In this document: positions 5,326-61,199 of the stretch, piece after piece
Numbering within the stretch: the first letter of the stretch is position 1
How the letters are laid out: every line of letters begins with the position of its first letter
From: Candidatus Omnitrophota bacterium
GTDB lineage: Bacteria; Omnitrophota; Gorgyraeia; 2-01-FULL-45-10
Length of the DNA stretch: 64,000 nt
Reading direction: 5' to 3'
Assembly (NCBI GenBank): GCA_016935115.1
Contig: JAFGRN010000002.1
Coordinates: forward strand, 3,748 to 67,747
Program-made: the position numbers and the translations under genes
Notes under the pieces: model-generated
The model's database searches: none
What the model saw: only the letters and a program-made list of their open reading frames with translations
Told to the model about the DNA's origin: nothing

Positions 5326-5942
5326 ATTCTTTCGTAAGACGCGAAATTCTTAAGCACCCTCAGGCCGCTGTGCTGGCTCTTTTCGGGATGGAACTGGGTC
5401 CCGAATACGTTTTCGCGGCAAATGCTGCTGGCAAACCTCTCGCCATTATCGGTCCAGGAAGATATATCCGATTCGCAGCTGCAATTTAACACATAACTGT
5501 GCACAAAGTAGAAATCGGCGCGGGCTTCAAGACCTTCAAACAGGACATTGTCGCTCCGTGAAAAATACGCCGTATTAAATCCTATGTGGGGAACCTTGAA
5601 ACCTTCCTTCGGGCTGATCCTGCGTACGTGCCCGCGGATCCACCCGAAACCGTCTTTCGGGCCATCCTCATCCCCTGATTCGGCGAAGAGCTGCATGCCG
5701 AGACAGATGCCCAGTATCGGTACCTTTCTCATGAGCACGGCCGTATTGATCGGCTTTAGAAACCCAAGCCTCTCTATGTTCCCCATAGCCTTTGCGAAAG
5801 AACCGACGCCCGGTAATATCAACTTCTGGCTCCCGGCAACCTGTTCTGGAGAGCTGATCACCTCATTTTCAATTCCGAGATAAGCCAGGGCATTCTGAAT
5901 CGACTTTATATTACCCATGCCGTAATTAACGATCGAGATCAT
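5319..5942 (-). CDS. HisH-like glutamine amidotransferase subunit (WbuY-like)
   Basis: Class-I GATase motifs: MISIVNYGMGN start, catalytic GICLGMQ, and C-terminal FHPEKS. Confidence 0.75.
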   Translation of the reverse strand: MISIVNYGMGNIKSIQNALAYLGIENEVISSPEQVAGSQKLILPGVGSFAKAMGNIERLGFLKPINTAVLMRKVPILGICLGMQLFAESGDEDGPKDGFGWIRGHVRRISPKEGFKVPHIGFNTAYFSRSDNVLFEGLEARADFYFVHSYVLNCSCESDISSWTDNGERFASSICRENVFGTQFHPEKSQHSGLRVLKNFASYERIC

Positions 5943-5964
5943 GCCTGTGGCTTATCGGCCAAGT

Positions 5965-7077
5965 TTAATGGGGAGTAAATACCGGAACCCATCTGCCGTT
6001 TTCCTTCCTGAATATTTTTTTGTTCACGATACCATCAAGCGTGGCATCAAACTCTTCCTTTGTCATTCTGAAATACTTGAGATACTCCTCTATGTACGGT
6101 TCCGGATATTCGCCGTCATACCTCTTCACAAGCTCAACCGCCTGTTTGCGTGTTATGGAGCCGCGGCGTATATCTATCCCCACATCCTGGGAACACCTGC
6201 CGAACCCGTACTTCAGGTACATCAGGTACGTCTGAAGAACATAAAGACTTGTATCTGTCTGGGCAAAATTGCCATAGGTTCCAATACACCGTTCCGTTTC
6301 TTCCTGAAGACCATACTTCTCCTTCGCGAGTAAATAATGCTCATAGGGATCCCAATTTTCAAAATATGACCAGTGGGCAACTGCCGGCTTCAGCTTGTTA
6401 AGCTCCTCTCTGGACGGAAAGAGCCACCAATACAGCTCCTTCTCGGAAAATTTTCCTATCATCTCCTGCGGATTAAAACCACTCAGGTATATATCCATAC
6501 TATACTCCTGATCGTAACACGCTCCTTTCTCCTGTTTTAGCTTTGAAGTTCCCCCGTACTCAGTCTCCCCCTCCTCACCAAACATGACAAAAGGTATATC
6601 CAATAGAACGGCTATTTTAAATATCACGGTCTGCAGGGCAATCAGCCACTGAAAATACCCCTGGCCCCGTTTTATAAAATACTCCCTATCAATTACCCTG
6701 CCCACTTCAGGGTTAGGTGTTACGTGTATATGGTCGTACCCGCACTTGATAAAATTCTCCAGGTTCTTCTTCCCGATCTCAAACTCAAGCGGGGGCCTGA
6801 CGGTAACCCCCAATGTACGCATTCCCATTTTCTCCTTCATCATATATGCAACGTATGAACTGTCCTTGCCGCCGCTGACCGGAAGGATACAATCAAATTT
6901 TGAATTAGAACGATTTCTGTACTTATCGCATAACTCCTCTAAGTACTTCCAGCGCGTTTTCCAGTCTACCCCGGCCTTCTTCTCTTCCGCCCAGCAACAG
7001 GCATTACAGACCCCGTCTTTATTAAATGTTATCCTTGGCCTGGTTTCCGGCATCAAGCATCGAGTACAATACTTCAT
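5965..7077 (-). CDS. N-acetyl sugar amidotransferase (WbuX/PseA/WbpG family, PP-loop ATP pyrophosphatase)
   Basis: N-terminal Zn-ribbon (CTRC…CNAC) and PP-loop SGGKDSSY; the family is known to form acetamidino groups on amino sugars together with HisH/HisF-like partners. Confidence 0.75.
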   Translation of the reverse strand: MKYCTRCLMPETRPRITFNKDGVCNACCWAEEKKAGVDWKTRWKYLEELCDKYRNRSNSKFDCILPVSGGKDSSYVAYMMKEKMGMRTLGVTVRPPLEFEIGKKNLENFIKCGYDHIHVTPNPEVGRVIDREYFIKRGQGYFQWLIALQTVIFKIAVLLDIPFVMFGEEGETEYGGTSKLKQEKGACYDQEYSMDIYLSGFNPQEMIGKFSEKELYWWLFPSREELNKLKPAVAHWSYFENWDPYEHYLLAKEKYGLQEETERCIGTYGNFAQTDTSLYVLQTYLMYLKYGFGRCSQDVGIDIRRGSITRKQAVELVKRYDGEYPEPYIEEYLKYFRMTKEEFDATLDGIVNKKIFRKENGRWVPVFTPH

Positions 7078-7784
7078 CGGATCGATCCTCCTCTTTTCAT
7101 TAGTAACTCCGCAAGTTTCCAGTCCAACTTATCGTCTATATCTACCGACCGCTCCCTGGGCATCACGTACGCGTATGTATGATCGCCGAACCATCCTCTC
7201 CTCTTCCTGAGATAATCGGTATATGCGACGTAAACCGCTCCGTTCAGCCTGTAAAGAGACGGCAGTTCCTGCTTATTCTTGTTCTCGGACTCAAGCCTGA
7301 CAAAATCTTTCATGCATCTGTCTTTCGGCAGGGTATTCGTCCAGTACGGATGATGCTCCGTTTCACATACTGAAACGACCGCCCGGGCATTCTTCAGGAA
7401 TAATTCCCTGATGGCATTATCTATGTCCGACGGCAGTCTTAAAGGGGACGTCGGCTGTAATAGCACTACGACGTCATATTTTGCTCCTTCTTGGAAAACC
7501 CGGCCAAGCGCATGGTCGATAACATCTATTGTCTTCGCGCTGTCCGTCGCCAGCTTTCTCGGCCTCAAAAACGGAACACATGCCCCGTGCCTCTTTGACA
7601 TCCGCGCGATGAATCTGCTGTCTGTGCTCACCAGCACTTCATCCAGGTAACGGCTCTTCTTTGCCTGCTCTATGGCATGCACGGTCAACGGCTTACCGCA
7701 AAGATCGCGCGCATTCTTTCCGGGGAGCCTCCTGGATCCGCTCCTCGCCGGTATTACCCCTATTATCCTCTTGCCTTTGAACAT
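7074..7784 (-). CDS. CMP-nonulosonate synthetase (acylneuraminate cytidylyltransferase family, LegF/NeuA-like)
   Basis: N-terminal IGVIPARSGSRRLPGKN motif typical of CMP-sugar cytidylyltransferases; ATGA overlap with the upstream gene. Confidence 0.7.
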   Translation of the reverse strand: MFKGKRIIGVIPARSGSRRLPGKNARDLCGKPLTVHAIEQAKKSRYLDEVLVSTDSRFIARMSKRHGACVPFLRPRKLATDSAKTIDVIDHALGRVFQEGAKYDVVVLLQPTSPLRLPSDIDNAIRELFLKNARAVVSVCETEHHPYWTNTLPKDRCMKDFVRLESENKNKQELPSLYRLNGAVYVAYTDYLRKRRGWFGDHTYAYVMPRERSVDIDDKLDWKLAELLMKRGGSIR

Positions 7785-7789
7785 ATTGC

Positions 7790-8860
7790 CTATATCCCCA
7801 ATTGTTTCAGGCTGTCTTTATACTCCTCCCACTGGCCTATATCAAACCATCCGCTGAAGATTGTATATACGCTCACCTTGTCCTTCTTCGCCACCGTTTC
7901 TATCAGCTCGTTTATATCCATCTTTTTGTTATCCGGAATGTACGACAAAACCCTCGGCTCAATAACATAGACGCCCGTGTTGATGATAACATCGTGCACC
8001 GGCTTCTCTACCATCTTCTTAAGCTTTCCATCCGATACTTCCAGGACGCCGAACGGTATCTTCACTTCATTGTGGCAGCCGACTATTGTTATCGCGGCAT
8101 CGTACTGTGAATGCCACTTCAGGAGTTGCGCAAAGTCCGCGGCAAGCAGTGAATCGCAATTGGTGACGAAGAATGTTTCCTTCAATTTCTCTCTCAATAA
8201 TGAAAGGCTTCCTATGGTGCCAAGATAATTTTTCTCTTCGACCCAATTGAGTTTATAGGAAGAAAAATCGTTCTCCTGCAGAAATATCTTTATATACTCC
8301 TTTTTATAATTCAACGTATAGTTAAAGTTGTGAAAGCCGTGCTTATAAAACTTCTCCATTATAAGCTCAATGACGGTCTTATCTCCTATGGGAATCAGCG
8401 GCTTGGGGAGTATCTTGGTGAATGGGTCCAGCCGTAATCCCTTACCACCGGCCATTATCACTACGGGGTTCGATTTGAGCGCGGCCTGTAATGGAACGAC
8501 ATCTTTATCAAAAATATCGATCCATCGGATCATGTCTTCTATGACACCATCTCTATTGACAATGGGAATCTGCTCAAGCTTGTCGTTGAACATGATCTCT
8601 TTCACATGGTACATAAGATTATCCATGTCGCTATCCACCTTCACAAAATCCCTGCGCATCAATTTACTGATCCCGTCTTTAAAAGCGCACCCGTGAATGA
8701 TCCCGCGACGGATATCGCCATCGGTGACGGTTCCCACCAGTTTATTCCCTTCCTCGACAACGAAGAGTATCCGTTCCGCGGTATAATCAAGTTTTTGCAT
8801 AGCCTCTTTTATGCTCATATCAGCAGAAACCAGAATAGACTGCAATTTTACACTGTCCAT
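7790..8860 (-). CDS. CBS-domain-containing sugar-phosphate nucleotidyltransferase (PtmE-like)
   Basis: Tandem CBS region followed by the nucleotidyltransferase motif VVIMAGGKGLRLDPFTKILPKPLI. The track start at 8884 is a GTG inside the upstream gene; the ATG at 8860 has the Shine-Dalgarno sequence AAGGGGA 8 nt upstream. Confidence 0.65.
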   Translation of the reverse strand: MDSVKLQSILVSADMSIKEAMQKLDYTAERILFVVEEGNKLVGTVTDGDIRRGIIHGCAFKDGISKLMRRDFVKVDSDMDNLMYHVKEIMFNDKLEQIPIVNRDGVIEDMIRWIDIFDKDVVPLQAALKSNPVVIMAGGKGLRLDPFTKILPKPLIPIGDKTVIELIMEKFYKHGFHNFNYTLNYKKEYIKIFLQENDFSSYKLNWVEEKNYLGTIGSLSLLREKLKETFFVTNCDSLLAADFAQLLKWHSQYDAAITIVGCHNEVKIPFGVLEVSDGKLKKMVEKPVHDVIINTGVYVIEPRVLSYIPDNKKMDINELIETVAKKDKVSVYTIFSGWFDIGQWEEYKDSLKQLGI

Positions 8861-8873
8861 GGACTTTATCCCC

Positions 8874-10052
8874 TTATTTACCACTGATCCTTAACGGAAT
8901 ATCATAAAAACTTTTTTTGGTCCATTTTTCAAACTTATGTTTCTTAAGTATCGTCCATATTTTCAACGATGCGTTTCTCCCCTCATACGAATTTTTAACG
9001 TTCCTGAGACTATTCTGAAACTTCGCCGAATACAGCTCTTTCAGAGCCCTTACTATATCGGATCTCAAGGGACGGCAATCAATAACACTTCTTGACTTGA
9101 TCCTCCCTCTTTGACGGCTGCCTATATTGATAGTTCCCACTCTGAAGCTCGGCGCCTCCATTATACCGCTGGAGGAATTTCCCACAACGGCGTCCACAAT
9201 TCTCATCGCCGACAGATAATTAAGGCGCCCCATAGACGTAAACGCTTCGGCCCTGTCGGGTCTCATGGAAACATATTCATCTATCATACGATTAACTATT
9301 TTTCCGCCGCTGTCCGCATTTGCCTTGGTGAATATCAAATGCGTACTGTTAAGTCCGTCAAGTGCGCTGAGCAGGTTTTTAAATTGCCATCCCGCGCTTC
9401 CATCCTCCAGTGTAGCCGGATGAAAGGTAATCAACAGGTTACGCCTGTCAAAGTTTATCCTCAGTTTCTTTTTCAACTGATCTCTGGTCAGAAAGGGCAT
9501 GTCTTTTAGGCCATCCAGTCCCGGCGCGCCTACGTTAAATACGCATTCGGGCGACTCTCCAAGCTGTATCACTCTTCTTCTGTACTCCTCGGTAGCGGTG
9601 AAATGCAGCTGGCTCATCTTGGTTATGGAATGGCGAAATGCATCATCTATAACTCCTTCTGTCAACTCTCCCCCGTGTATATGCGCTACCGGTATGCAGG
9701 CAACATGAGCGGCGGCAACAGCACCGAATATTTCAAATCTGTCACCCAGGACAACCACTACATCCGGCTTCATCTCCTCATAAGCGGCGGCAAAACCGGA
9801 TATTGCCATAGCCATTGATCCGGAAATACCGACAGCAGTATCGGATATCAAATTAATATCTACCTTTCTATCAATGCAAAAACTATCTTTTTCGATCTCC
9901 TTATACGTAAACCCGAATTCTTTTTTGAGATGCGCCCCGGTAACTGCTAATTGCAGCTTTAGATCCCCGTCATTTTTTATCTTCTCAAGAAACGGCCTCA
10001 GCAACCCGTATTCAGCTCTTGATCCTGTAACAACGAAGATTTTTCTTTTCAT
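8874..10052 (-). CDS. UDP-N-acetylglucosamine 2-epimerase (hydrolysing), NeuC/LegG family
   Basis: MKRKIFVVTGSRAEYGLL… N-terminus and overall length are typical of NeuC-type hydrolysing 2-epimerases. Confidence 0.75.
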   Translation of the reverse strand: MKRKIFVVTGSRAEYGLLRPFLEKIKNDGDLKLQLAVTGAHLKKEFGFTYKEIEKDSFCIDRKVDINLISDTAVGISGSMAMAISGFAAAYEEMKPDVVVVLGDRFEIFGAVAAAHVACIPVAHIHGGELTEGVIDDAFRHSITKMSQLHFTATEEYRRRVIQLGESPECVFNVGAPGLDGLKDMPFLTRDQLKKKLRINFDRRNLLITFHPATLEDGSAGWQFKNLLSALDGLNSTHLIFTKANADSGGKIVNRMIDEYVSMRPDRAEAFTSMGRLNYLSAMRIVDAVVGNSSSGIMEAPSFRVGTINIGSRQRGRIKSRSVIDCRPLRSDIVRALKELYSAKFQNSLRNVKNSYEGRNASLKIWTILKKHKFEKWTKKSFYDIPLRISGK

Positions 10053-11056
10053 AGTATTATGAATTCATCTTTTTTGTAAGTTCTTTTTGCCCGCCTGCCT
10101 ATAACCGAATCCCATTTTATAGGGCTCATCCCATAGGCGGGACGTTTTGTGGTAATATTAGCCTCGAAAAATTCTTCGCCTTTCCCTATGTGGCGGGCAG
10201 CCACGATACTTTTTCGTACAATATCTCTATTTTTTAGCTCTGCAGCGAGGGGCCTTTTGATACCGTCTCCGAGGCCTTTTTCCACGTTGCGCACAGCGCT
10301 GACCATTTCATTAAACTCGCGTGGTTCCAGCGATGCCCGGTGATCCGGCCCCCTCATATTTTTATCAAGAGTAAAATGCTTTTCGATAACCGTCGCTCCG
10401 AGCGCCACGGCCGCTATTGCCATCTCCGTGCCGGGCGTATGATCAGAATACCCCACATTCACTCCCAGGACTTTTTTCATAGTCAGCATAGCATTTAGGT
10501 TTGCATTTTCAAAAGGCGCGGGATATGCCGTGGTGCATTGCATAATGGTAATATCATCTTTTCGGGTGCCGCAGGATACTAAAATCTTTATCGCCTCTCT
10601 GACTTCATCAAGATCCGACATGCCGGTAGACAACAGGATCTTCCTCTTCAAGGCTCCTGCTTTTCTAAGATACGGCACATTATCAATCTCGCCGGAAGGT
10701 ATCTTGAGGGTGCGAAGCCCGAGCCGCGATAAAAAATTCAGGCTTTCTATGTCAAAAGCGCTTGACATGAACTCAATGCGCATTTTTTTGCAGTGAGCTT
10801 GCAACTTAATAAAGGCGCCTTTATTAAGCTCCAATTTTTTCAGCATTTGAAATTGTGACCGAAAACCCTTGGCGGCTCTCTTCTGATATTCGGCTTGCGG
10901 CGCGCTTTTCGTGGCAATTGCCCCGGCGATAAATGTTTGAAATTTTATACCGTCCGCGCCGGATTTCGCTGCAGCATATACCATCTTCCTGGCAGCTCCC
11001 AAGCTACCGTTATGATTAACACCCGCCTCAGCTATGATAAAGGTCTTATTTGCCAT
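10049..11056 (-). CDS. N-acetylneuraminate-synthase-family nonulosonate synthase (NeuB/LegI-like)
   Basis: KTFIIAEAGVNHNGSLG…GADGIKFQTF motif. The track N-terminus (11155) runs into the upstream gene; the ATG at 11056 (MANKTF…) with GGAGG just upstream is the likely start. Confidence 0.75.
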   Translation of the reverse strand: MANKTFIIAEAGVNHNGSLGAARKMVYAAAKSGADGIKFQTFIAGAIATKSAPQAEYQKRAAKGFRSQFQMLKKLELNKGAFIKLQAHCKKMRIEFMSSAFDIESLNFLSRLGLRTLKIPSGEIDNVPYLRKAGALKRKILLSTGMSDLDEVREAIKILVSCGTRKDDITIMQCTTAYPAPFENANLNAMLTMKKVLGVNVGYSDHTPGTEMAIAAVALGATVIEKHFTLDKNMRGPDHRASLEPREFNEMVSAVRNVEKGLGDGIKRPLAAELKNRDIVRKSIVAARHIGKGEEFFEANITTKRPAYGMSPIKWDSVIGRRAKRTYKKDEFIIL

Positions 11057-11762
11057 GTGCCTCCGGCATATATACAAATCTGTAGCCATGCAGCTCCAGG
11101 CAGGCACCCTGCATAGCCGGGTAAGCGGTTGCCTTGATACGCCTTGCGATCTCATCTTTTTCCATATCAGGGCTCAACCGGCATAAATCATTGAGTTCTC
11201 TACGGGTGTAAAGCCTGTCGCTCCAGCGTTCTGTGGCAGAACAACAGGATAGCGCGCCTGTAGATACATATTTTTCGAAAACTCGATGGAATTGCCGGGC
11301 CAGGTGATCATAACATTTTTGGGTCAGAGAATAGACCGTATCCCCGGGTGATATCGCAAATCTTGCCACATCAACTATTCTGCCGGAATCTACATTCGCG
11401 GCCATAAGGTGCGCCGTAACCCCATATTTTGTCTCCCCGTTATATATGGCGAAATTGGTACATCCTATACCGCGATATTCAGGCGGCCCAGGATGGAAGT
11501 TGATGGAGAATTCTCTTATACTATCCAAAACCCCGGAGGGAACTATCCACGGCGACAGATACGATATGCATATATCGTACCCATGCCTTTCTACCCCCCG
11601 GGGAAAAGGGTCTCCTACTTTTCCGATAAAGCTGTCCACTATGCCGAAACATTTCCGTAAAATACCAAGCGCCTTTTTAAGCCCAGGTTTATCCTTGGCG
11701 AATAAAACCACCTTTTTGTCCTGCATCCTCTTTGTCACACAACCAGGCCCATTCCCTTTCAT
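11046..11762 (-). CDS. formyltransferase-domain protein (Fmt-like; candidate sugar N-formyltransferase)
   Basis: HPGPPEYRGIGCTNFAIYNGETKYGVTAH… resembles the HPSLLP…G core of N10-formyl-THF formyltransferases, and the gene sits inside the Leg-like module. Confidence 0.6.
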   Translation of the reverse strand: MKGNGPGCVTKRMQDKKVVLFAKDKPGLKKALGILRKCFGIVDSFIGKVGDPFPRGVERHGYDICISYLSPWIVPSGVLDSIREFSINFHPGPPEYRGIGCTNFAIYNGETKYGVTAHLMAANVDSGRIVDVARFAISPGDTVYSLTQKCYDHLARQFHRVFEKYVSTGALSCCSATERWSDRLYTRRELNDLCRLSPDMEKDEIARRIKATAYPAMQGACLELHGYRFVYMPEAHGK

Positions 11763-13813
11763 TTCAATACGCCCTCCGGCCGCACGAGTGGCTTCACCTT
11801 CCTGAAATAGTTATCGATATGAACCAGGGTTGTCGTCTTAAACAACCCGTAGGGATTATTTTCATCGACGTCGTACCTTTCGATCACGGTGCTTATAAGC
11901 TTGGCCTGATCATCCGATATCTCAAATGTTATGGCCACGGGATGTTCCAGCTTATAATCCGAGAGTTTCCCCCGGAATCCCGACTCGATCCATTTCAGTA
12001 TGTCATGCCGCACGGTGATCACTTTTTCTCTCACGATATTTTTGGATATGACGCCGGATAATTTTGCCAGGATATACTCGCGTATATCGGCCATCTCTTC
12101 ACGGATCCGGGCCGCCTCACCCTTTTTCCCGTCGGTTAAGTAACGCCCGGCCATCTCCGAAAAATATGCCGCGTACGTATCAAAATATACCGAGGACGCG
12201 AATATGCTGCACTTCTGCATGAGGTTATCCCCCTGCTCGCGCTCCACCAGCTTCCTGTAATTCTCTTCTTTCGAATAGAACCGGATCAGCTCCTCGGGCG
12301 AGTTCCAGAGCTCCGATCTTGCCTCAGCGGTAAATTTTCCGAAGCACCCGGCGGCCTTAGACCTGTTTTTCCTCAGGTCCTCAAAAACGTAGACCAGCCA
12401 GTCAAATATATCGACTCCATACTGTTTCATGTATTCGATGAGCTCGCGGTATATGCCGTTATTCACGAGAAGCCTTAACAGGCCGTGGAAACTCCGGAAG
12501 TATATGTAATCCTCAAAATTATACGAATTCGTGCCGACGACGACCTTCTCTATCTCGAAGCTGTACTTTCCATTCACCTTCCCGAAGTTTCTCGGTATGA
12601 GACGATAGCGTATGTCATATTTGAACTTTTCGTGCGCTTCTTCCGAATCCAGCTCTATCCCGTCGAGGAGCATAAATGTGAAGGGATCCACGAAATCGAA
12701 ATTATACTTCATCATATCCCGGAGGGTATTCATGTGAGACTGTCGGGTTTCGTGGGGAAGCCCCGTGATGATCTCGGTACTGACATTCTTATTCATACTG
12801 TGCACCAGATTTATGTATTCTACGATCTTATCCCCGCTGAGATTGCGCCTCTTTATGCCCTCCAGAACCTTCTGGTCTGTGGACTGCATAGCAAGCCCGT
12901 ACTTCATGCCCTTGAGCCTGGAGATGCGCTTTATATGCTCACTCGTGGCGGCTTTGCCATAGGGCGCAGTAAAGATCCTGGGATAGTCTAACTCCTGCTG
13001 TAACCTGTACACGACATCGACCGTATCATAATCCCTTTCATACAAGCCAAAATTGGAATCGCATACCATAAGATCATAAATATTATTAGCTATCGCCATT
13101 TTCGATATATACTCCAGTTCTTTTCTTATCCTGTCCATACTGAAATTACCTATGCGCCTGTTCTGTTCATTAGAAGCCCAGCAGTACGCGCATGTATGAG
13201 GACAGCCTCTTGTCGTCTGCATGGACGGAGTAAACCTCTTCTCATTAAAAAACTTGTCCATTAAACCGGTAAGGTGCGGCGACGGAAATATGTCAAGCTC
13301 TTTTGGGCGCGAAATATTCGCGCCAGCTACAAACTCTCCTTTTTTGTTAATACATAATACGCCTTCTATTGGTGTGCTCTTCATTTTTTCAATATCACAA
13401 CCTGTATCGAAATAGGCATTTAGAAGATTAGAAAAAGCTATCTCCCCATCATACGGAATCAAAAAATCGATATGGCTATTTTCCTGGAGAAATAATTTTT
13501 GCCTTTTCTTATCCAGCGGAAAGGCGAGCCCCCCGAAGACTATCATAGAATCGGGATTTTTCTGCTTTACATATTTACTTGCCATCAAAGCGACATTCTT
13601 ATTCCATACATAACATGAACCGGCAAATATATCCGGAGGGTTATTCTCGACCAATTTAAAAAATTCGTCCGCATATTTAAAGATGCCTGCACTACATCTG
13701 GATCCGAAATTAGCCAGCGCATATGCCGCAACATACGCGCTGCCAAGCGGCATTACATCACATGCCAGGATACCATCATTATAAGTAAGATCCGCAAAAT
13801 ATATTTTCCTCAT
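11759..13813 (-). CDS. large (684 aa) cobalamin-binding radical SAM enzyme with extended C-terminal domain
   Basis: B12-binding-like N-terminus, radical SAM motif TRGCPHTCAYC, and a C-terminal extension of about 250 aa. Paralogous to 22168..24195 and 47366..49381 (shared IPSPYLTG…TxRGCPxxCxYC). TAATG overlap with the upstream aminotransferase. Confidence 0.8.
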   Translation of the reverse strand: MRKIYFADLTYNDGILACDVMPLGSAYVAAYALANFGSRCSAGIFKYADEFFKLVENNPPDIFAGSCYVWNKNVALMASKYVKQKNPDSMIVFGGLAFPLDKKRQKLFLQENSHIDFLIPYDGEIAFSNLLNAYFDTGCDIEKMKSTPIEGVLCINKKGEFVAGANISRPKELDIFPSPHLTGLMDKFFNEKRFTPSMQTTRGCPHTCAYCWASNEQNRRIGNFSMDRIRKELEYISKMAIANNIYDLMVCDSNFGLYERDYDTVDVVYRLQQELDYPRIFTAPYGKAATSEHIKRISRLKGMKYGLAMQSTDQKVLEGIKRRNLSGDKIVEYINLVHSMNKNVSTEIITGLPHETRQSHMNTLRDMMKYNFDFVDPFTFMLLDGIELDSEEAHEKFKYDIRYRLIPRNFGKVNGKYSFEIEKVVVGTNSYNFEDYIYFRSFHGLLRLLVNNGIYRELIEYMKQYGVDIFDWLVYVFEDLRKNRSKAAGCFGKFTAEARSELWNSPEELIRFYSKEENYRKLVEREQGDNLMQKCSIFASSVYFDTYAAYFSEMAGRYLTDGKKGEAARIREEMADIREYILAKLSGVISKNIVREKVITVRHDILKWIESGFRGKLSDYKLEHPVAITFEISDDQAKLISTVIERYDVDENNPYGLFKTTTLVHIDNYFRKVKPLVRPEGVLK

Positions 13814-14922
13814 TAGGCAATCAGCTCCTTTAGCTTGGTCGTAACACGATATATATCATCCTTCGTATTCATTACGGAACTCGGAAGGCATAGGCCCCTG
13901 TCGTAAAGACCGCGCGACCGACTGTAATCACCCTTTCCGTACTTCCTATATGGCGGAAACCCGGTCGCAGGCATAAAGATCCGCCTGGTCGGAATATTAT
14001 GTTTCATGAGTTTCTTCTGCAGCCTGGCTATATTAATGCCATCGGCAAAAGATACACAGGTAAACCAATTTGAGCTCCGGCCTCCGTCGCATTCCTCCTG
14101 AAAACGTATAGTCTTGATACCACCGAGCTTCTCGCGGTATATAGAATTGATCCGGTTCTTGCTGGCCAGAAACCGGTTGATTTTTTTCAGCTGCGCGAGG
14201 CCGAGTGCTGCCTCTATATTGGTCATCCTGTAATTGAATCCCATCTCAGGGTGGTAGAGGGAATTTGCCTTATCCTTTGCCTGATTCACGAGAAACTTTA
14301 TATGCCCCGCCTTCCCCGCGTCCCGGCTGACGACCATGCCTCCGCCGCCGGTCGTTATGATCTTGTTGCCGTTAAAACTGAAGCAACCGAAATCGCCGAA
14401 TGTGCCGGTCTGCCTGCCCTTATATGTGGCACCAAGACTCTCCGTGGCATCCTCTATTACGGCCAGCCCGTGCTTCCTGGCTATTCTCATGATAGCGCCC
14501 ATATCGCAAGGATTTCCATACAGATGCACCGGCAGTATCGCCTTCGTTCTCCTGTTTATTAGGCGCTCTATGCGGCAGGGGTCTATATTCCACGTCCGGC
14601 TGTCGATATCCGCAAAGACCGGCCTTGCGCCGACATAAAGGACCGGATTTATTGACGCTATAAAAGTTAGCGCCGGCACTATGACCTCGTCTCCCCGCCC
14701 AATTTTCAATTCATGAAGCGCCATATGCAGCGCCGCCGTCCCGCTCTGAGTGGCGACAGCATTTCTCGACCCGACATAACGCGCGAAGGCTTCTTCAAAA
14801 TCGAAAACAAACCGCCCGGCGCTCGACACGTAGCCGGTATCCACGGCTCTGCTGAGATATCTCTTCTCCGCGGCCCCGATGCTCGGCGCATCGAGATATA
14901 TAGTCTTATATATTGTAGACAT
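13813..14922 (-). CDS. DegT/DnrJ/EryC1/StrS-family PLP aminotransferase (LegC/PseC-like)
   Basis: Aminotransferase fold sequences (…VATQSGTAALHMAL…EVIVPALTFIAS…) typical of sugar 4-aminotransferases. Confidence 0.8.
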   Translation of the reverse strand: MSTIYKTIYLDAPSIGAAEKRYLSRAVDTGYVSSAGRFVFDFEEAFARYVGSRNAVATQSGTAALHMALHELKIGRGDEVIVPALTFIASINPVLYVGARPVFADIDSRTWNIDPCRIERLINRRTKAILPVHLYGNPCDMGAIMRIARKHGLAVIEDATESLGATYKGRQTGTFGDFGCFSFNGNKIITTGGGGMVVSRDAGKAGHIKFLVNQAKDKANSLYHPEMGFNYRMTNIEAALGLAQLKKINRFLASKNRINSIYREKLGGIKTIRFQEECDGGRSSNWFTCVSFADGINIARLQKKLMKHNIPTRRIFMPATGFPPYRKYGKGDYSRSRGLYDRGLCLPSSVMNTKDDIYRVTTKLKELIA

Positions 14923-15904
14923 CGCTCCTGTAAAATTTCATATTGTCCTTACTGCGAAACCACTCTATCGTCTCTTTCAGGCCCTCTTCCAGCGAATACC
15001 CGGGACGCCATCCCGCCAGCTTCCTGATCCTGGCATTGCTTCCCACCAGCCTCTCAACCTCACTCTTTTTCGGCCTGAACCTTTTACCGTCGGATATTAT
15101 CCTGGCTCCGGGGTTGATCATCGAGATCAGCTTCCGGGCAAGATCCTTTATGGATATCTCGCTCCCCGTGGCGATGTTGATCTCCTTCCCTATGGTTTTT
15201 TCCGAACGCGCTATCGCGACAAAGCCATTGGCAACATCCTTCACGAAGACCAGATCCCTCGTCGGATAGACGTTTCCGAGCTCAATATCCCTCCTGCCGG
15301 ACAGGAGCTGTGTTATTATGGTAGGTATCACCGCCCTGGCCGACTGCCTTGGCCCGTACGTATTGAACGGCCTGACGATGGTTACAGGCAGCCCAAAACT
15401 CCTGTAAAAAGATTCTGCGATGGCATCGGCCGCGATCTTCGTAGCGGAGTATGGCGATTGACCCTGCCTGGGATGCTTCTCGTCCATCGGCGCATATCTG
15501 GCTGTGCCGTATGTTTCGGAAGTCGATGTAACCAATACATTCTTCACGCCTATATCCTTTGCCGCCTGGAGGACATTCAGAGTTCCTTTTATGTTGGTGT
15601 CTACATAGCTTTCCGGAGAGTGGTAGCTGAATGGGATGCCGATAAGGGCCGCGAGATGGAATATGATATCCGTACCCCTGGCCGCTACCCTGACGTTGTC
15701 GGAGTCCCTGACATCTCCGAGCGCAATATCGATCTTTTTCATCTTCTCCTTGGGAAATGAATCCAGCCAGCCCAGGCTGTTGAAGGAGTTATAGAGCACG
15801 AACGCCCTGACCTTGCACCCTTCTTCCAGTAACTTCTCGACAAGGTGGCTTCCTATGAAACCCTCGGCCCCCGTAACCAGGACTCTCTTCCCCTTAAGGA
15901 TCAT
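14906..15904 (-). CDS. NAD-dependent epimerase/dehydratase (SDR); candidate nucleotide-sugar 4,6-dehydratase (LegB-like)
   Basis: Gly-rich VLVTGAEGFIGSHL and catalytic YSATK. Positioned directly upstream of the aminotransferase, as in Leg/Pse pathways. Confidence 0.7.
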   Translation of the reverse strand: MILKGKRVLVTGAEGFIGSHLVEKLLEEGCKVRAFVLYNSFNSLGWLDSFPKEKMKKIDIALGDVRDSDNVRVAARGTDIIFHLAALIGIPFSYHSPESYVDTNIKGTLNVLQAAKDIGVKNVLVTSTSETYGTARYAPMDEKHPRQGQSPYSATKIAADAIAESFYRSFGLPVTIVRPFNTYGPRQSARAVIPTIITQLLSGRRDIELGNVYPTRDLVFVKDVANGFVAIARSEKTIGKEINIATGSEISIKDLARKLISMINPGARIISDGKRFRPKKSEVERLVGSNARIRKLAGWRPGYSLEEGLKETIEWFRSKDNMKFYRSDVYNI

Positions 15905-17355
15905 TTTCTACCCCCTACCTTCTCCTGTTTTCTATCGTAGTGTCTGGCTCCGCGAAACTTATATTCGCCCTTGAAGTAAAGGTTATAAAACTGTTCTATC
16001 AGATGATTCGCTTCCTTCATGTCCCCGGCCGTATGCTCATAATGGTCTATTATGAGCTCCTTATTCACATTGAAGAGGCTCTCATAAAATTGTTTTTCCG
16101 GAATATCCGTAAAGTTCACTGTCAACAGGTCTGAATTTTTGAAACGCTCGAAGAAATCTTCCGGGCCGCTCAGCAGTCCGCGCCTTATAGCCTCATAGTA
16201 GAGATCACACCCGGGGTATGGCGTCACGGGCCGTATTGTCCGCAGATGATAGTATGTATTTAGCTCCCGAATGAGGCGCACGTTCGATTTAAGCGACGCC
16301 TCGGTATCGCCTATATTCCCCCACAGGAAGTTCAGTCCTATGCCCACGCCCGTCTTCTTCGCTATCCTGACCGCTTTTATATTCTGCTCCACCGTGGTCC
16401 TCTTACCCATGGCGTTGAGCACATTCTGGTCCGACGACTCAAGCCCGAAATTCAGGAAGACGCACCCGCACTCGGCCAGCGTATGAGCTATCTCCTCATC
16501 GAATATATCCACCCTTGCATCACAGTTAAATGTTATTTTAAGGCCCGCCGATTTCAAGGCGTCCCTGAACTCGAGAAGCCTTCTCCTGGACGATATGAAG
16601 AGCTCGTCCTGCATATTGAAATGCCTTACGCCGTACTGTTGATAAAGGATCTTCATCTCCTCTATCACATTGTTTATGCTCCTTAAACGTATGCCCGATT
16701 CCATGCGGTAACAGAAGTTACAGCGATTGGTGCATCCGCGGCCCGTTATGACCGCCAGGACCTTCCCGCCCTCTTCCATGCCCTTCAATCCGACGCAATC
16801 GGCGTAATCCTTCATGGGAAAGATCTCCCACGCCGGGAATGGAAAACGGTCGAGCTGTCTCGACGGTTCCCGCCTCTTGTTCACTACGACGCCATCCCCC
16901 GACCTGAAGGCTATGCCGTCGACATTCGAAATGTCGTTACCGCCGGCAATCTTGCATTTCAGGAGGTCAACCATCGTCTCCTCCGCATCGCCTATGGCCA
17001 CAATATCCGCGCCCGTTGTCTTTATCATATATTCGGGTATCGATGACGGGCCATGCGCACCCAGCACGAGCCAGGCGCCCCCTTTATACTGATTAATGAC
17101 TTCACACAGGTCCAGGACGGTCTCCTTGAACCTGGCGGCCATAAATCCCACACCTATCAGGTCATAGGATCCGTTTTGCAGATACCGCCTGACCAGTTCT
17201 TCATTGGAATAATGAAATACGTCCTGGCACGCCACCGTAACCTCGGCCCCGGATGCTTTAAGAGCCGAAGCGATATACGCGGGCCCGAGCGGAAAGATAT
17301 TATCTTCCTGATAGACGTCGTGTATGATCAGCAGAACCCTGCCTCCGCGACTCAT
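15901..17355 (-). CDS. cobalamin-binding (class B) radical SAM enzyme, 484 aa
   Basis: B12-binding-like N-terminus, GCTNRCNFCYR, and the C-terminal TIRPVTPYPG motif shared with 3063..4451; ATGA overlap with the upstream gene. Confidence 0.8.
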   Translation of the reverse strand: MSRGGRVLLIIHDVYQEDNIFPLGPAYIASALKASGAEVTVACQDVFHYSNEELVRRYLQNGSYDLIGVGFMAARFKETVLDLCEVINQYKGGAWLVLGAHGPSSIPEYMIKTTGADIVAIGDAEETMVDLLKCKIAGGNDISNVDGIAFRSGDGVVVNKRREPSRQLDRFPFPAWEIFPMKDYADCVGLKGMEEGGKVLAVITGRGCTNRCNFCYRMESGIRLRSINNVIEEMKILYQQYGVRHFNMQDELFISSRRRLLEFRDALKSAGLKITFNCDARVDIFDEEIAHTLAECGCVFLNFGLESSDQNVLNAMGKRTTVEQNIKAVRIAKKTGVGIGLNFLWGNIGDTEASLKSNVRLIRELNTYYHLRTIRPVTPYPGCDLYYEAIRRGLLSGPEDFFERFKNSDLLTVNFTDIPEKQFYESLFNVNKELIIDHYEHTAGDMKEANHLIEQFYNLYFKGEYKFRGARHYDRKQEKVGGRK

Positions 17356-21377: not shown

Positions 21378-21378
21378 G

Positions 21379-24195: not shown

Positions 24196-24208
24196 ACTCG
24201 CTCCGACG

Positions 24209-24832: not shown

Positions 24833-24834
24833 TG

Positions 24835-25881: not shown

Positions 25882-25884
25882 CGA

Positions 25885-27117: not shown

Positions 27118-27118
27118 C

Positions 27119-43034: not shown

Positions 43035-43050
43035 GATATCCTCGCCGGAG

Positions 43051-43614: not shown

Positions 43615-43618
43615 AGCT

Positions 43619-44884: not shown

Positions 44885-44891
44885 AATTGTC

Positions 44892-45926: not shown

Positions 45927-45927
45927 A

Positions 45928-59670: not shown

Positions 59671-59683
59671 CTTATATGCAGCC

Positions 59684-61164: not shown

Positions 61165-61199
61165 AAAACACCCCCATGACTACATTATCACACGCGCCG

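What the first reader, a model, noticed from the sequence alone, without database searches (positions are those of the whole stretch)
7074..15904. Legionaminic-acid-like pathway in which a formyltransferase replaces the usual N-acetyltransferase
Gene order is dehydratase (14906..15904), aminotransferase (13813..14922), [B12 radical SAM], Fmt-like formyltransferase (11046..11762), NeuB-like synthase, NeuC-like hydrolysing 2-epimerase, CBS-nucleotidyltransferase, CMP-sugar synthetase. This mirrors the Campylobacter GDP-GlcNAc-based legionaminic acid route (PtmE, LegB, LegC, LegH, LegG, LegI, LegF), but the acyl-transfer step is a formyltransferase-domain protein. That predicts an N-formylated di-amino nonulosonic acid (7-formamido-type), possibly further C-modified by the inserted radical SAM enzyme.
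Basis: partly seen in the sequence, partly recalled or inferred. Interest (0 to 1): 0.6.

Follow-up and report, generated by a model that had tools for sequence, protein, structure and literature searches.

The report
Legionaminic-acid pathway with a formyltransferase
An operon in an uncultured Omnitrophota bacterium makes a sialic-acid-like surface sugar of the legionaminic acid type, and it very probably puts a formyl group on one amino group where textbook pathways put an acetyl group; the same swap occurs in many uncultured phyla and has recent published precedents, so the finding is solid but not unprecedented.

Summary
Window 7074-15904 (minus strand) encodes LegB, a LegC-type aminotransferase, a 684-aa cobalamin radical-SAM enzyme, a 238-aa formyltransferase (FT), NeuB/LegI, NeuC/LegG, a PtmE-like CBS-nucleotidyltransferase and a CMP-sugar synthetase, with overlapping stop and start codons.

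The FT keeps the Asn/His/Asp triad, aligned to ArnA N102/H104/D140. It folds like 4-amino-sugar N-formyltransferases; WbkC, the GDP-perosamine enzyme, is the best match.

The FT belongs to a conserved ~220-aa family found in 162 species genomes from more than 15 phyla. In 44 of 81 loci it sits inside Leg-type clusters, typically LegB-LegC-FT-NeuB-NeuC. Only 2 of those 44 carry a real PglD/LegH-type acetyltransferase.

A related cluster (L085, enzymes 53-61% identical) has a PglD-type acetyltransferase exactly where this one has the FT.

The likely product is therefore CMP-Leg5Am7Fo, possibly C-methylated by the TokK/CysS-like radical-SAM enzyme.

The idea is not new. PseJ does this in pseudaminic acid synthesis, and a 2026 preprint labels the Kuenenia FT "legH/fmt" and detects formylated CMP-nonulosonates. 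Nothing here is shown biochemically.

The parts
14906..15904 (-). LegB: NAD-dependent NDP-GlcNAc 4,6-dehydratase (332 aa)
   Evidence: TIGR04180, 484.4 bits, above the cutoff of 475. PF16363 and PF01370 also match. It is 61% identical to LegB of the comparator locus L085.
13813..14922 (-). LegC-family PLP aminotransferase (369 aa); makes the 4-amino group
   Evidence: PF01041 E = 4e-109. TIGR04181 405.7 bits, just below the cutoff of 420; the PseC model scores only 255.9. It is 59-61% identical to LegC in L085, L018, L021 and L023.
11759..13813 (-). 684-aa cobalamin-dependent (class B) radical-SAM enzyme, TokK/CysS/KedN5-like; a presumed C-methyltransferase whose target is unknown
   Evidence: PF04055 and PF02310 match. 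KedN5 subfamily 178 bits, far below the cutoff of 700. Best solved relatives are TokK 7kdx (E = 7e-37) and CysS 9n1b (E = 2e-28). The sequence contains CPHTCAYC, a CxxxCxxC motif. Orthologues at 50-65% identity sit in Leg clusters with either an FT or PglD.
11046..11762 (-). Short sugar N-formyltransferase (238 aa), occupying the LegH slot
   Evidence: PF00551, 48.7 bits, above the cutoff of 26.1. N88/H90/D125 are invariant in the family and align to the ArnA triad. The AF2 model has pLDDT 91.5. Top Foldseek hits are WbkC, Rv3404c, VioF, WbtJ and ArnA. A family profile against the PDB puts WbkC first at 2e-18 and PseJ at 6e-10.
10049..11056 (-). NeuB/LegI nonulosonate synthase (start taken as the ATG at 11056, overlapping the FT stop)
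   Evidence: TIGR03569, 467.7 bits, above the cutoff of 399.65; the PseI model scores 264. The start was read from the sequence: MANKTFIIAEAGVNHNG.
8874..10052 (-). NeuC/LegG hydrolysing NDP-sugar 2-epimerase
   Evidence: TIGR03568, 460.7 bits, above the cutoff of 235.9; the non-hydrolysing WecB model scores only 65.5.
7790..8884 (-). PtmE-like CBS plus sugar-1-phosphate nucleotidyltransferase (supplies the NDP-GlcN(Ac) precursor, probably GDP-linked)
   Evidence: PF00571 CBS plus PF00483. It co-occurs with the FT in 33 of 44 Leg-context loci. The link to the GDP route rests on my recollection of C. jejuni PtmE.
7074..7784 (-). CMP-nonulosonate synthetase (LegF-like)
   Evidence: PF02348 E = 1e-23. 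Nearest model is PseF TIGR03584 at 163 bits, below the cutoff of 205.7.
5965..7077 (-). WbuX-family N-acetyl-sugar amidotransferase (acetamido to acetamidino)
   Evidence: TIGR03573, 365.2 bits, above the cutoff of 203.2. It is found with the FT in 21 of 44 Leg-context loci.
5319..5942 (-). HisH/WbuY-like glutaminase subunit
   Evidence: PF00117. TIGR01855, 214 bits.
4507..5325 (-). HisF/WbuZ-like subunit
   Evidence: PF00977. WbuZ TIGR03572 209.9 bits, below the cutoff of 299.7; AglZ/HisF2 acetamidino family 169.8 bits.
3063..4451 (-). 462-aa B12 radical-SAM enzyme, a probable further tailoring enzyme of this pathway
   Evidence: PF02310 68 bits plus PF04055. Orthologues at 60-71% identity lie in the FT-type Leg loci L004, L005, L018, L029 and L035. 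Best solved relative is the sugar diol-dehydratase AprD4, 6fd2, E = 1e-20.
15901..17355 (-). 484-aa B12 radical-SAM enzyme, 38% identical paralogue of 3063-4451; its stop overlaps the LegB start by 4 nt
   Evidence: Whether it belongs to the pathway is inferred from position only.

Best explanation
This is a GDP-GlcNAc-type legionaminic-acid-family pathway in which a folate-dependent N-formyltransferase has displaced the LegH/PglD acetyltransferase.

Proposed steps:
1. The PtmE-like enzyme supplies the NDP-GlcN(Ac) precursor.
2. LegB makes the 4-keto-6-deoxy sugar.
3. The LegC-type enzyme makes NDP-4-amino-4,6-dideoxy-GlcNAc.
4. The 238-aa FT transfers formyl from N10-formyl-tetrahydrofolate to the 4-amino group, using N88/H90/D125.
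5. NeuC/LegG removes the nucleotide and epimerises C2.
6. NeuB/LegI condenses the product with PEP to give Leg5Ac7Fo.
7. The cytidylyltransferase activates it as the CMP-sugar.
8. WbuX/HisH/HisF convert the remaining 5-acetamido group to acetamidino, giving CMP-Leg5Am7Fo.
9. The TokK-like radical-SAM enzyme, and perhaps the two flanking B12 radical-SAM enzymes, add further C-methyl or other radical modifications at an unknown position.

Shown by computation: the gene identities, the intact FT active site, the fold, the conserved synteny and the positional replacement of PglD. Inferred: the formyl donor, the acceptor (N-4 of the hexose, which becomes N-7 of the nonulosonate), the order of the amidination step, the nucleotide carrier, the stereochemistry (Leg rather than an epimer) and everything about the radical-SAM enzymes.
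For: The FT active site and fold:
- The triad is invariant in 27 homologues and aligns with ArnA N102/H104/D140 (the ArnA residue numbers are from my knowledge of the ArnA literature).
- The AF2 model has pLDDT 91.5.
- The top 35 Foldseek hits are all sugar N-formyltransferases, nearly all of them 4-N enzymes. They are led by WbkC, which acts on a GDP-linked 4-amino-4,6-dideoxyhexose.
- The family profile also puts WbkC first, at 2e-18.

Synteny:
- 162 species genomes carry a family member.
- 44 of 81 loci have NeuB or NeuC next to the FT. Of these, 34 have LegC, 33 have PtmE and 21 have WbuX.
- Only 5 of the 44 give a PglD-like BLAST hit, and 3 of those are fragments.
- Of 100 otherwise unassigned ORFs inside 39 such loci, only 3 are GNATs, and Hexapep is not among the 25 most frequent families.

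Positional replacement: L085 has the order rSAM-LegB-LegC-PglD-NeuB-NeuC-CMPsyn-HisF-HisH. Its LegB, LegC, NeuB, NeuC and CMP synthetase are 53-61% identical to the window's enzymes, and PglD sits where the FT is here.

The window cluster has no deacetylase or second FT, so the LegC-made amine is the only free amine available.

Experimental precedents:
- PseJ formyltransferase in Pse5Ac7Fo synthesis (PMC11040635, citing Reimer et al. 2018).
- Ca. Kuenenia makes CMP-nonulosonates with an N-formyl group from a cluster legB-NTase-legC-PIG-L-WbqC-'formyltransferase family protein (legH/fmt)'-neuB.
Against: - There is no biochemical or mass-spectrometric evidence for this organism or for this FT clade.
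- A NeuD/PglD-family acetyltransferase (56860-57513, TIGR03570 169.7 bits, cutoff 160.8), a second hexapeptide acetyltransferase (59684-60163) and a GNAT (61200-62345) lie in the same co-directional gene array. LegH is also unlinked from legB and legC in C. jejuni (stated in the preprint).
- Cluster completeness is not guaranteed. FT loci L005 and L015 lack any aminotransferase within 10 kb, so essential steps can be encoded elsewhere.
- Dissulfurispira (L001) and an Acidobacteriota MAG (L047) carry both the FT and PglD in one Leg cluster.
- The only structurally proven formyl-legionaminic acid, from Halorubrum, is formylated at N-5, not N-7.
- Pfam matches only residues 73-152. The N-terminal half is shorter than in the canonical PF00551 domain.
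Confidence: 0.7

Rival explanations
1. A trans-acting acetyltransferase performs the LegH step, either the PglD/NeuD-family enzyme at 56860-57513 or one elsewhere in the genome. The FT then formylates a different amine. That would most plausibly be N-5 after de-N-acetylation, giving a Halorubrum-like Leg5Fo7Ac, with the amidotransferase then acting on N-7.
For: - Halorubrum sp. PV6 makes 5-N-formyl-legionaminic acid from a cluster that has both an FT and NeuD-like/LegH candidates.
- The window contains PglD-type and other acetyltransferases and a polysaccharide deacetylase at 55.9-63.2 kb.
- L001 and L047 have both the FT and PglD.
- Amidotransferases of this family act on N-7 in Pse5Ac7Am (PseA).
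Against: - No PIG-L-type sugar deacetylase exists anywhere in the window. The PF01522 enzyme at 62318-63181 is PgaB-like and acts on polymers.
- Where FT loci do carry PIG-L (13 of 44), 8 also carry a second, long Fmt-like FT. This long FT lies next to PIG-L in several of them, for example L001, L008, L016, L023 and L033. That suggests the pair handles N-5 and leaves the short FT for N-7.
- The remote acetyltransferase sits in its own SDR-DegT-AT-GT2 module and is only 27-30% identical to in-cluster LegH-type enzymes.
- The FT occupies exactly the PglD slot seen in L085.
Confidence: 0.12
2. Both acyl groups are used. The FT and a trans-acting acetyltransferase compete for the 4-amine, so the cell makes a mixture of 7-formyl and 7-acetyl legionaminic acids. 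The FT adds diversity rather than replacing LegH.
For: - Acetyltransferases are present in the window.
- C. jejuni and other bacteria make many nonulosonate variants in parallel.
- The FT and PglD coexist in L001 and L047.
Against: About 90% of FT-type Leg loci have no acetyltransferase within 10 kb. The arrangement is strictly either/or between the otherwise similar L085 cluster and the window cluster.
Confidence: 0.12
3. The FT-like protein is not a formyl-THF-dependent N-formyltransferase. It could be a folate-independent acyltransferase or hydrolase, or it could act on a non-sugar substrate, and its place in Leg clusters would reflect some other role.
For: - Pfam covers only residues 73-152.
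- Identity to any characterised enzyme is only 16-24%.
- Some FT loci lack an aminotransferase.
- A Bacteroidota subgroup uses the family outside nonulosonate clusters.
Against: - The full catalytic triad and the HxGxxxxxxG-type folate loop are invariant.
- The confident whole-length fold matches sugar N-formyltransferases.
- The FT-fold enzymes I know of use formyl-folate as donor (my knowledge; HypX is a partial exception).
Confidence: 0.05

Closest known systems
Campylobacter jejuni GDP-GlcNAc legionaminic acid pathway (PtmE, LegB, LegC, LegH, LegG, LegI, LegF; PtmG for the acetamidino group)
   Same: It has the same enzyme families for every step except one: a CBS-nucleotidyltransferase, LegB (above the model cutoff), a LegC-type aminotransferase, a hydrolysing NeuC, NeuB, a CMP synthetase and a WbuX/PtmG-type amidotransferase.
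   Different: There is no LegH/PglD hexapeptide acetyltransferase in the cluster; an unrelated FT fold sits in its place. There are no PtmF or PtmA genes. Up to three B12 radical-SAM genes are interleaved with the pathway genes.
PseJ, the formyltransferase of Pse5Ac7Fo biosynthesis (PDB 6ci2, 6ci4; Reimer et al. 2018, cited in PMC11040635)
   Same: It follows the same logic: an FT-fold enzyme takes the place of the N-acetyltransferase (PseH) on the 4-amino nucleotide sugar, so the nonulosonate carries a 7-formamido group. It is homologous to the family here (profile E = 6e-10).
   Different: It belongs to a different pathway (pseudaminic, UDP-L-sugar) and a different clade. The family here is closer to WbkC (2e-18) than to PseJ, and it has an extra ~80-residue C-terminal subdomain.
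Ca. Kuenenia stuttgartiensis Leg-type cluster KSMBR1_RS09820-09860 (SugarBase preprint 10.64898/2026.04.20.719630)
   Same: The order is legB, nucleotidyltransferase, legC, then a 'formyltransferase family protein' immediately before neuB. The authors label that protein legH/fmt, and formylated CMP-nonulosonates were detected by MS. This is the closest published analogue.
   Different: The Kuenenia cluster also has a PIG-L deacetylase and a WbqC protein, and its product keeps one free amine. It has no amidotransferase or radical-SAM genes. I could not fetch the sequence, so whether its FT belongs to the same ~220-aa family is untested.
Halorubrum sp. PV6 5-N-formyl-legionaminic acid cluster (PMC6137143)
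   Same: It is a legionaminic acid pathway with a candidate FT (HrrPV6_1050) among legB, legC, legF, legG and legI, and the product is a formylated Leg.
   Different: The formyl group is on N-5 and acetyltransferase candidates are retained. The organism is an archaeon. The FT assignment there is also only a prediction.
WbkC (Brucella GDP-perosamine N-formyltransferase) and related 4-N sugar formyltransferases (Rv3404c, VioF, WbtJ, ArnA)
   Same: These are the best sequence-profile and structural matches, with TM about 0.65-0.75 over the whole length and the same Asn/His/Asp triad. WbkC's substrate is a GDP-linked 4-amino-4,6-dideoxyhexose, chemically close to the LegC product.
   Different: Identity is only 16-24%. 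Those enzymes serve O-antigen hexoses or lipid A modification rather than nonulosonate synthesis.
TokK/ThnK, CysS and KedN5 class B radical-SAM methylases (for the 684-aa enzyme)
   Same: They share the B12 domain plus radical-SAM core: TokK E = 7e-37, CysS E = 2e-28, and a partial match to the KedN5 subfamily model.
   Different: The enzyme scores far below the family cutoff (178 against 700) and has a distinct ~300-residue C-terminal region. Its context is a nucleotide-sugar pathway rather than an antibiotic pathway. One relative at 31% identity is fused to a CMP-sugar synthetase domain.

Membership tests
Formyltransferase superfamily (PF00551; PurN/Fmt/ArnA type) | Significant match to the Formyl_trans_N domain | tested here: met
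   48.7 bits against a gathering cutoff of 26.1, but only residues 73-152 are covered. The profile search against the PDB covers residues 29-215.
Formyltransferase superfamily (PF00551; PurN/Fmt/ArnA type) | Catalytic Asn-x-His and downstream Asp | tested here: met
   N88, H90 and D125 are invariant in 27 of 27 family members. They align to ArnA residues 102, 104 and 140.
Formyltransferase superfamily (PF00551; PurN/Fmt/ArnA type) | Uses N10-formyl-tetrahydrofolate as donor | not testable with these tools
   This needs an enzyme assay or a ligand-bound structure.
Sugar 4-N-formyltransferases (WbkC/VioF/WbtJ/Rv3404c/ArnA class) | Whole-chain fold similarity including the C-terminal subdomain | tested here: met
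   The AF2 model has pLDDT 91.5. Foldseek gives E = 2e-16 to 1e-13 and TM 0.64-0.75 to these enzymes, ahead of PurN and Fmt.
Sugar 4-N-formyltransferases (WbkC/VioF/WbtJ/Rv3404c/ArnA class) | Acts on a nucleotide-linked 4-amino sugar | not testable with these tools
   Inferred from three things: its position directly after LegC in many loci, the absence of any other free amine, and the nearest relatives.
PseJ family (Pse5Ac7Fo formyltransferase) | Closest characterised relative is PseJ | tested here: not met
   PseJ (6ci2, 6ci4) scores E = 6e-10 over positions 24-149. It ranks behind WbkC (2e-18), 6nbp, WlaRD, ArnA and LgrA. The protein works like PseJ but is not an orthologue.
LegH/PglD/NeuD hexapeptide N-acetyltransferases | Left-handed beta-helix with hexapeptide repeats plus a PglD_N domain, encoded in the cluster | tested here: not met
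   There is no Hexapep or TIGR03570 hit in 1-36 kb. The only family members in the window are at 56860-57513 and 59684-60163.
Legionaminic acid biosynthesis (Leg pathway) | LegB-type retaining 4,6-dehydratase | tested here: met
   TIGR04180, 484.4 bits, above the cutoff of 475; the PseB model scores only 81.9.
Legionaminic acid biosynthesis (Leg pathway) | LegC-type aminotransferase | tested here: inconclusive
   TIGR04181, 405.7 bits, slightly below the cutoff of 420. It is still by far the best model; PseC scores 255.9.
Legionaminic acid biosynthesis (Leg pathway) | Hydrolysing 2-epimerase (LegG/NeuC) and a NeuB-type rather than PseI-type synthase | tested here: met
   TIGR03568, 460.7 bits, above the cutoff of 235.9. 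TIGR03569, 467.7 bits, above the cutoff of 399.65; the PseI model scores 264.2, below its cutoff of 340.
Legionaminic acid biosynthesis (Leg pathway) | D-glycero-D-galacto stereochemistry of the product | not testable with these tools
   Sequence cannot separate Leg from its 4-epi and 8-epi isomers or from acinetaminic acid. No extra epimerase gene is present in 3-17 kb.
WbuX/WbuY/WbuZ acetamidino-forming amidotransferase | All three components adjacent | tested here: met
   WbuX TIGR03573 365.2 bits, above the cutoff of 203.2. HisH-like and HisF-like genes are adjacent. The WbuZ model scores 209.9, below its cutoff of 299.7.
Class B (cobalamin) radical-SAM methylases, TokK/CysS/KedN5 group | B12-binding domain plus a CxxxCxxC radical-SAM core, with homology to characterised members | tested here: met
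   PF02310 and PF04055 match. The sequence has C204-x3-C208-x2-C211. TokK E = 7e-37 and CysS E = 2e-28.
Class B (cobalamin) radical-SAM methylases, TokK/CysS/KedN5 group | Reaches the KedN5 subfamily cutoff | tested here: not met
   178.1 bits against a cutoff of 700, with only model positions 13-387 of 624 matched.

The most novel reading that the evidence does not exclude
The formyl swap is only part of the story. This Leg pathway may be tailored by up to three cobalamin radical-SAM enzymes: a TokK/CysS-like iterative C-methylase inside the operon and two AprD4/BchE-like paralogues flanking it. These would act on the CMP-activated or free nonulosonate and produce carbon-extended or branched 'higher-carbon' ulosonic acids. 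That would give a genetic explanation for the unexplained C10 CMP-ulosonic acids reported in Magnetospirillum gryphiswaldense.

Supporting hints:
- Orthologues of the 684-aa enzyme are confined to Leg-plus-amidino clusters.
- A relative is fused to a CMP-sugar synthetase.
- A paralogue in the window sits between the HisH and HisF genes of the second nonulosonate cluster.
Probability: 0.3. Interest if true: 0.75.

Novelty: new member of a known kind. Interest (0 to 1): 0.42.

Why it matters
Nonulosonic acids on flagella, S-layers and LPS decide phage recognition, immune recognition and surface charge, and their N-acyl groups are the main source of variation.

- **An assayable enzyme family.** The analysis gives a defined ~220-aa family that probably makes the 7-formamido form of legionaminic acid. 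The LegH-to-FT swap appears to be widespread, with 162 species genomes from more than 15 mostly uncultured phyla, including archaea.
- **A practical use.** The family is a candidate enzyme for chemoenzymatic synthesis of N7-formyl Leg derivatives.
- **Annotation.** Many family members are currently labelled 'methionyl-tRNA formyltransferase' or 'hypothetical protein', and this gives a rule for correcting that.
- **A less expected lead.** TokK-like and other B12 radical-SAM enzymes are linked to nonulosonate clusters, which suggests sugar chemistry (C-methylation of sialic-acid-like sugars) that has not been described.

Tried and rejected
- **Functional pair of FT and the 684-aa radical-SAM enzyme (for example formyl methylated to acetyl): rejected.** Only 2 of 44 FT-type Leg loci carry an orthologue of that enzyme. 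Its closest orthologues sit in PglD-type clusters without an FT (L085, L086).
- **A hidden acetyltransferase inside FT-type clusters: not found.** I batch-scanned 100 unassigned ORFs from 39 loci against Pfam. Only 3 were GNATs, and Hexapep was not among the 25 most frequent families.
- **An alternative aminotransferase in the LegC-less loci L005, L015, L016 and L007: not found.** The neighbours are flippases, glycosyltransferases and MBOAT proteins. This remains unexplained.
- **The broader ~680-aa radical-SAM family as generally nonulosonate-linked: rejected.** The Sneathiella member at 30% identity lies in an unrelated context.
- **Literature on radical SAM plus nonulosonic acid plus formyl:** no papers. 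Searches for Leg5Ac7Fo, Leg5Am7Fo and similar names found nothing beyond the Halorubrum work.
- **The PseJ paper itself is not held in the library.** It is cited second-hand through PMC11040635.
- **Unused:** one homologue search, the representative-library search and one structure job, because their answers would not have changed the verdict.

Full report
**Origin and layout.** The FT protein is 100% identical to a hypothetical protein from a Candidatus Omnitrophica MAG on a 126.9-kb contig. Almost every gene in the 64-kb window is on the minus strand, forming one long glycan-biosynthesis array. The region holding the finding has lower G+C (0.45-0.48) than most of the rest of the window (mostly 0.49-0.55).

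**Checking the observation.**
- LegB: TIGR04180, 484 bits against a cutoff of 475.
- LegC-family aminotransferase: TIGR04181, 406 bits against 420.
- A 684-aa B12 plus radical-SAM protein.
- A 238-aa PF00551 protein.
- NeuB: TIGR03569, 468 bits against 400.
- Hydrolysing NeuC: TIGR03568, 461 bits against 236.
- A CBS plus nucleotidyltransferase protein.
- A CTP_transf_3 cytidylyltransferase.

Neighbouring genes overlap by 1-17 nt. The NeuB start is best placed at the ATG at 11056, which overlaps the FT stop codon.

The cluster does not end at 7074. A WbuX amidotransferase (TIGR03573, 365 bits against 203) and HisH- and HisF-like partners follow at 4507-7077. B12 radical-SAM genes flank both ends, at 3063-4451 and 15901-17355.

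**The formyltransferase.**
- The sequence reads ...SINFHPGPPEYRGIGCTNFAIY...VDSGRIV....
- A pairwise HMMER alignment to ArnA puts N88, H90 and D125 on ArnA residues 102, 104 and 140. From my knowledge of the ArnA literature, these are the catalytic Asn/His/Asp.
- In an alignment of 27 homologues at 42-59% identity, these three residues and the surrounding motif are invariant.
- An AlphaFold model built on that alignment is confident (pLDDT 91.5, pTM 0.87).
- Its best PDB matches are all sugar N-formyltransferases, nearly all of which act on 4-amino sugars. They include WbkC (GDP-perosamine), Rv3404c, VioF, WbtJ and ArnA, at E = 2e-16 to 1e-13 and TM about 0.65-0.75.
- A family profile against PDB sequences also ranks WbkC first (2e-18, nearly full length). 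PseJ, the pseudaminic-acid formyltransferase, scores 6e-10.

The protein is therefore an intact member of the sugar N-formyltransferase class. It is most similar to an enzyme whose substrate is a GDP-linked 4-amino-4,6-dideoxyhexose, and it is not an orthologue of PseJ.

**Comparative genomics.** A word-indexed search found 868 relatives. A scan of one genome per GTDB species found 162, of which 80 loci were fetched. They come from:
- Omnitrophota, Planctomycetota, Elusimicrobiota, Kapaibacteria and Nitrospirota;
- Desulfobacterota, Alphaproteobacteria and Fibrobacterota;
- Verrucomicrobiota, Acidobacteriota, Bacteroidota and Bacillota;
- two archaeal MAGs and other groups.

I searched all ORFs of these loci with the window's pathway proteins and with reference PglD, PIG-L and long-FT proteins. 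Of 81 non-redundant loci, 44 have NeuB or NeuC next to the FT. Within those 44:
- 34 have LegC and 31 a strong LegB;
- 33 have PtmE and 29 a CMP synthetase;
- 21 have WbuX and 13 a PIG-L deacetylase;
- 8 have a second, long FT;
- only 5 give a PglD-like hit. Two of these are full-length (Dissulfurispira L001 and Acidobacteriota L047) and three are weak fragments.

The recurrent order is LegB-LegC-FT-NeuB-NeuC-PtmE-CMPsyn-HisF-HisH-WbuX, as in L004, L017, L018, L021, L030 and L031. To look for acetyltransferases BLAST might miss, I scanned 100 unassigned ORFs inside 39 such loci against Pfam. Only 3 were GNATs, and Hexapep was not among the 25 most frequent families.

**The positional swap.** The clearest evidence came by accident, from the neighbourhoods of orthologues of the radical-SAM enzyme. 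Locus L085 reads rSAM-LegB-LegC-PglD-NeuB-NeuC-CMPsyn-HisF-HisH. Its proteins are 54, 61, 59, 57, 56 and 53% identical to the window's radical-SAM enzyme, LegB, LegC, NeuB, NeuC and CMP synthetase. That cluster is as close to the window's as the nearest FT-type clusters are (LegC 61% identical in L018, L021 and L023). It has a PglD_N/hexapeptide acetyltransferase exactly between LegC and NeuB. L086 is similar. This is non-orthologous displacement at one step.

**Mechanism proposed.**
- The window cluster has no deacetylase and no second FT.
- The only free amine in the pathway is therefore the one made by LegC at C-4 of the hexose, which becomes N-7 of the nonulosonate.
- The FT would formylate it at the nucleotide-sugar stage, as WbkC and PseJ do with their substrates.
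- NeuC, NeuB and the cytidylyltransferase would then give CMP-Leg5Ac7Fo.
- The amidotransferase would convert the remaining acetamido group, giving CMP-Leg5Am7Fo (calculated [M-H]- 623.17).
- The donor, the acceptor, the order of steps, the nucleotide carrier and the stereochemistry are all inferred.

**Caveats.**
- The window contains acetyltransferases far upstream. They are a NeuD/PglD-family enzyme (56860-57513, TIGR03570 170 bits against 161), a second hexapeptide enzyme (59684-60163) and a GNAT (61200-62345). The PglD-family enzyme lies in an SDR-DegT-AT-GT2(ArnC/PgfS-like) module. It is only 27-30% identical to in-cluster LegH-type enzymes, so it probably serves another sugar. A trans role cannot be excluded, especially as C. 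jejuni legH is unlinked from legB and legC.
- Clusters are not always complete. L005 and L015 have no aminotransferase within 10 kb.
- The FT and PglD coexist in L001 and L047.
- The one structurally established formyl-Leg, from Halorubrum, carries the formyl group on N-5.

**The radical-SAM enzymes.**
- The 684-aa enzyme has a CxxxCxxC motif. Its nearest solved relatives are TokK and CysS, cobalamin-dependent methylases that add methyl groups iteratively to sp3 carbons. It matches the KedN5 model only partially.
- Orthologues at 50-65% identity (about 20 proteins) lie in Leg clusters that have the amidotransferase genes, whether the acyl step is an FT or PglD.
- It is therefore a separate tailoring module and not a partner of the FT.
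- A relative at 31% identity is fused to a cytidylyltransferase domain inside a NeuB/HisF cluster. This hints that the substrate is a CMP-linked or about-to-be-activated nonulosonate.
- Two full-length paralogues occur in the window at 23-26% identity. One lies between the HisH and HisF genes of a second nonulosonate cluster.
- The 462-aa enzyme at 3063-4451 has orthologues at 60-71% identity in five other FT-type Leg loci. Its best solved relative is the sugar diol-dehydratase AprD4.
- The targets of all these enzymes are unknown. C-methylation of the sugar skeleton or of an N-acyl/amidino methyl group is the most natural guess.
- A 2026 preprint reports unexplained C10 CMP-ulosonic acids in Magnetospirillum. 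A link to these enzymes is speculative and was not tested.

**Comparison with what is known.**
- Replacing the acetyltransferase with a formyltransferase is established for pseudaminic acid, through PseJ and Pse5Ac7Fo.
- For legionaminic acid, Halorubrum sp. PV6 makes a 5-N-formyl form and has a candidate FT.
- The SugarBase preprint detects CMP-nonulosonates with one formylated and one free amine in Ca. Kuenenia. It tabulates the cluster legB, nucleotidyltransferase, legC, PIG-L, WbqC, 'formyltransferase family protein' (labelled legH/fmt), neuB, cytidylyltransferase, legG. The concept has therefore been published.

What this analysis adds:
- a defined FT family, distinct from PseJ;
- its breadth across phyla;
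- the direct PglD/FT slot comparison;
- the predicted amidino-formyl product;
- the association with radical-SAM enzymes.

**Verdict.** I file it as a new member of a known kind. Interest is moderate, and most of the remaining novelty lies in the radical-SAM tailoring.

Noticed in passing
window 20208-32472 (minus strand): A second, pseudaminic-type nonulosonate cluster. It contains PseB (TIGR03589, 494 bits), a CMP synthetase, an RmlD-like 4-reductase, a PseG-like hydrolase, a carbamoyltransferase, a SAM methyltransferase, PseI (440 bits) and its own WbuX/HisH/HisF set. It has no PseC aminotransferase and no PseH. This predicts a 7-hydroxy (fusaminic-acid-like) 5-amidino sugar, possibly O-carbamoylated and O-methylated.
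   Followed up: partly
window 22168-24195: A 675-aa TokK/KedN5-like B12 radical-SAM paralogue (24% identical to the one in the finding) sits between the HisH and HisF genes of the second cluster's amidotransferase. This hints at a functional link between these methylases and acetamidino formation.
   Followed up: partly
whole window: There are twelve radical-SAM genes in 64 kb. Nine are B12-type (starting at 3063, 11759, 15901, 22168, 33109, 34496, 47366, 50934 and 53298), two are SPASM-type (19150 and 37127) and one is MiaB-like (38028). All are embedded among sugar-biosynthesis genes.
   Followed up: partly
window 53298-55898: An 866-aa protein fuses a B12 radical-SAM enzyme to a DUF2334 domain (PF10096). 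It lies just upstream of an ArnC/PgfS-like GT2.
   Followed up: no
window 55919-63181: A separate amino-sugar module: GT2 (ArnC/PgfS-like), a NeuD/PglD-family acetyltransferase, a DegT aminotransferase, an SDR, a second hexapeptide acetyltransferase, a Gfo/Idh/MocA enzyme like UDP-GlcNAc 3-dehydrogenase, a GNAT and a PgaB-like polysaccharide deacetylase. It is the only source of acetyltransferases in the window.
   Followed up: partly
window 40409-47231: Genes for a methylated or branched deoxy- or heptose-type sugar: a CmcI-like O-methyltransferase, a GHMP kinase, an epimerase, RmlC, a TylC3-like sugar C-methyltransferase (PF08484, PF08421), an SDR, an SIS isomerase and a nucleotidyltransferase.
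   Followed up: no
window 1125-3059, 17352-19220, 49381-50916: Three large ORFs (644, 622 and 511 aa) inside the operon array have no Pfam or NCBIfam match and no similarity to each other. They are candidates for the missing nonulosonate transferases.
   Followed up: partly
L005 and L015 (also L007, L016): These FT-type Leg clusters have the order flippase-LegB-PtmE-FT-NeuB-NeuC-CMPsyn-HisF-HisH-WbuX-MBOAT, with no aminotransferase of any class within 10 kb. The source of the amine the FT would formylate is unexplained.
   Followed up: partly
L059, L061, L065-L068, L072, L073, L077, L078, L080 (Bacteroidota): A subgroup of the FT family, aligned only to about residue 214, sits next to a PglD-like acetyltransferase. 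In most of these loci an SDR and a DegT aminotransferase are also adjacent, and no NeuB or NeuC is present. This is presumably a di-N-acylated hexose pathway, so the family is not restricted to nonulosonates.
   Followed up: no
L088 9001-11802 (protein P0157): A natural fusion of a CMP-sugar-synthetase domain (PF02348) with a B12 radical-SAM enzyme. It lies in a cluster with NeuB and two HisF-like genes.
   Followed up: partly
L001 (Dissulfurispira thermophila AP022873.1, 1254536-1275264): A cultured organism carries the short FT directly followed by a PglD-like acetyltransferase, plus a long FT/PIG-L pair. Its cluster also contains an 80-aa NeuB fragment, a 110-aa NeuC fragment and a transposase, so it may be decaying.
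   Followed up: no
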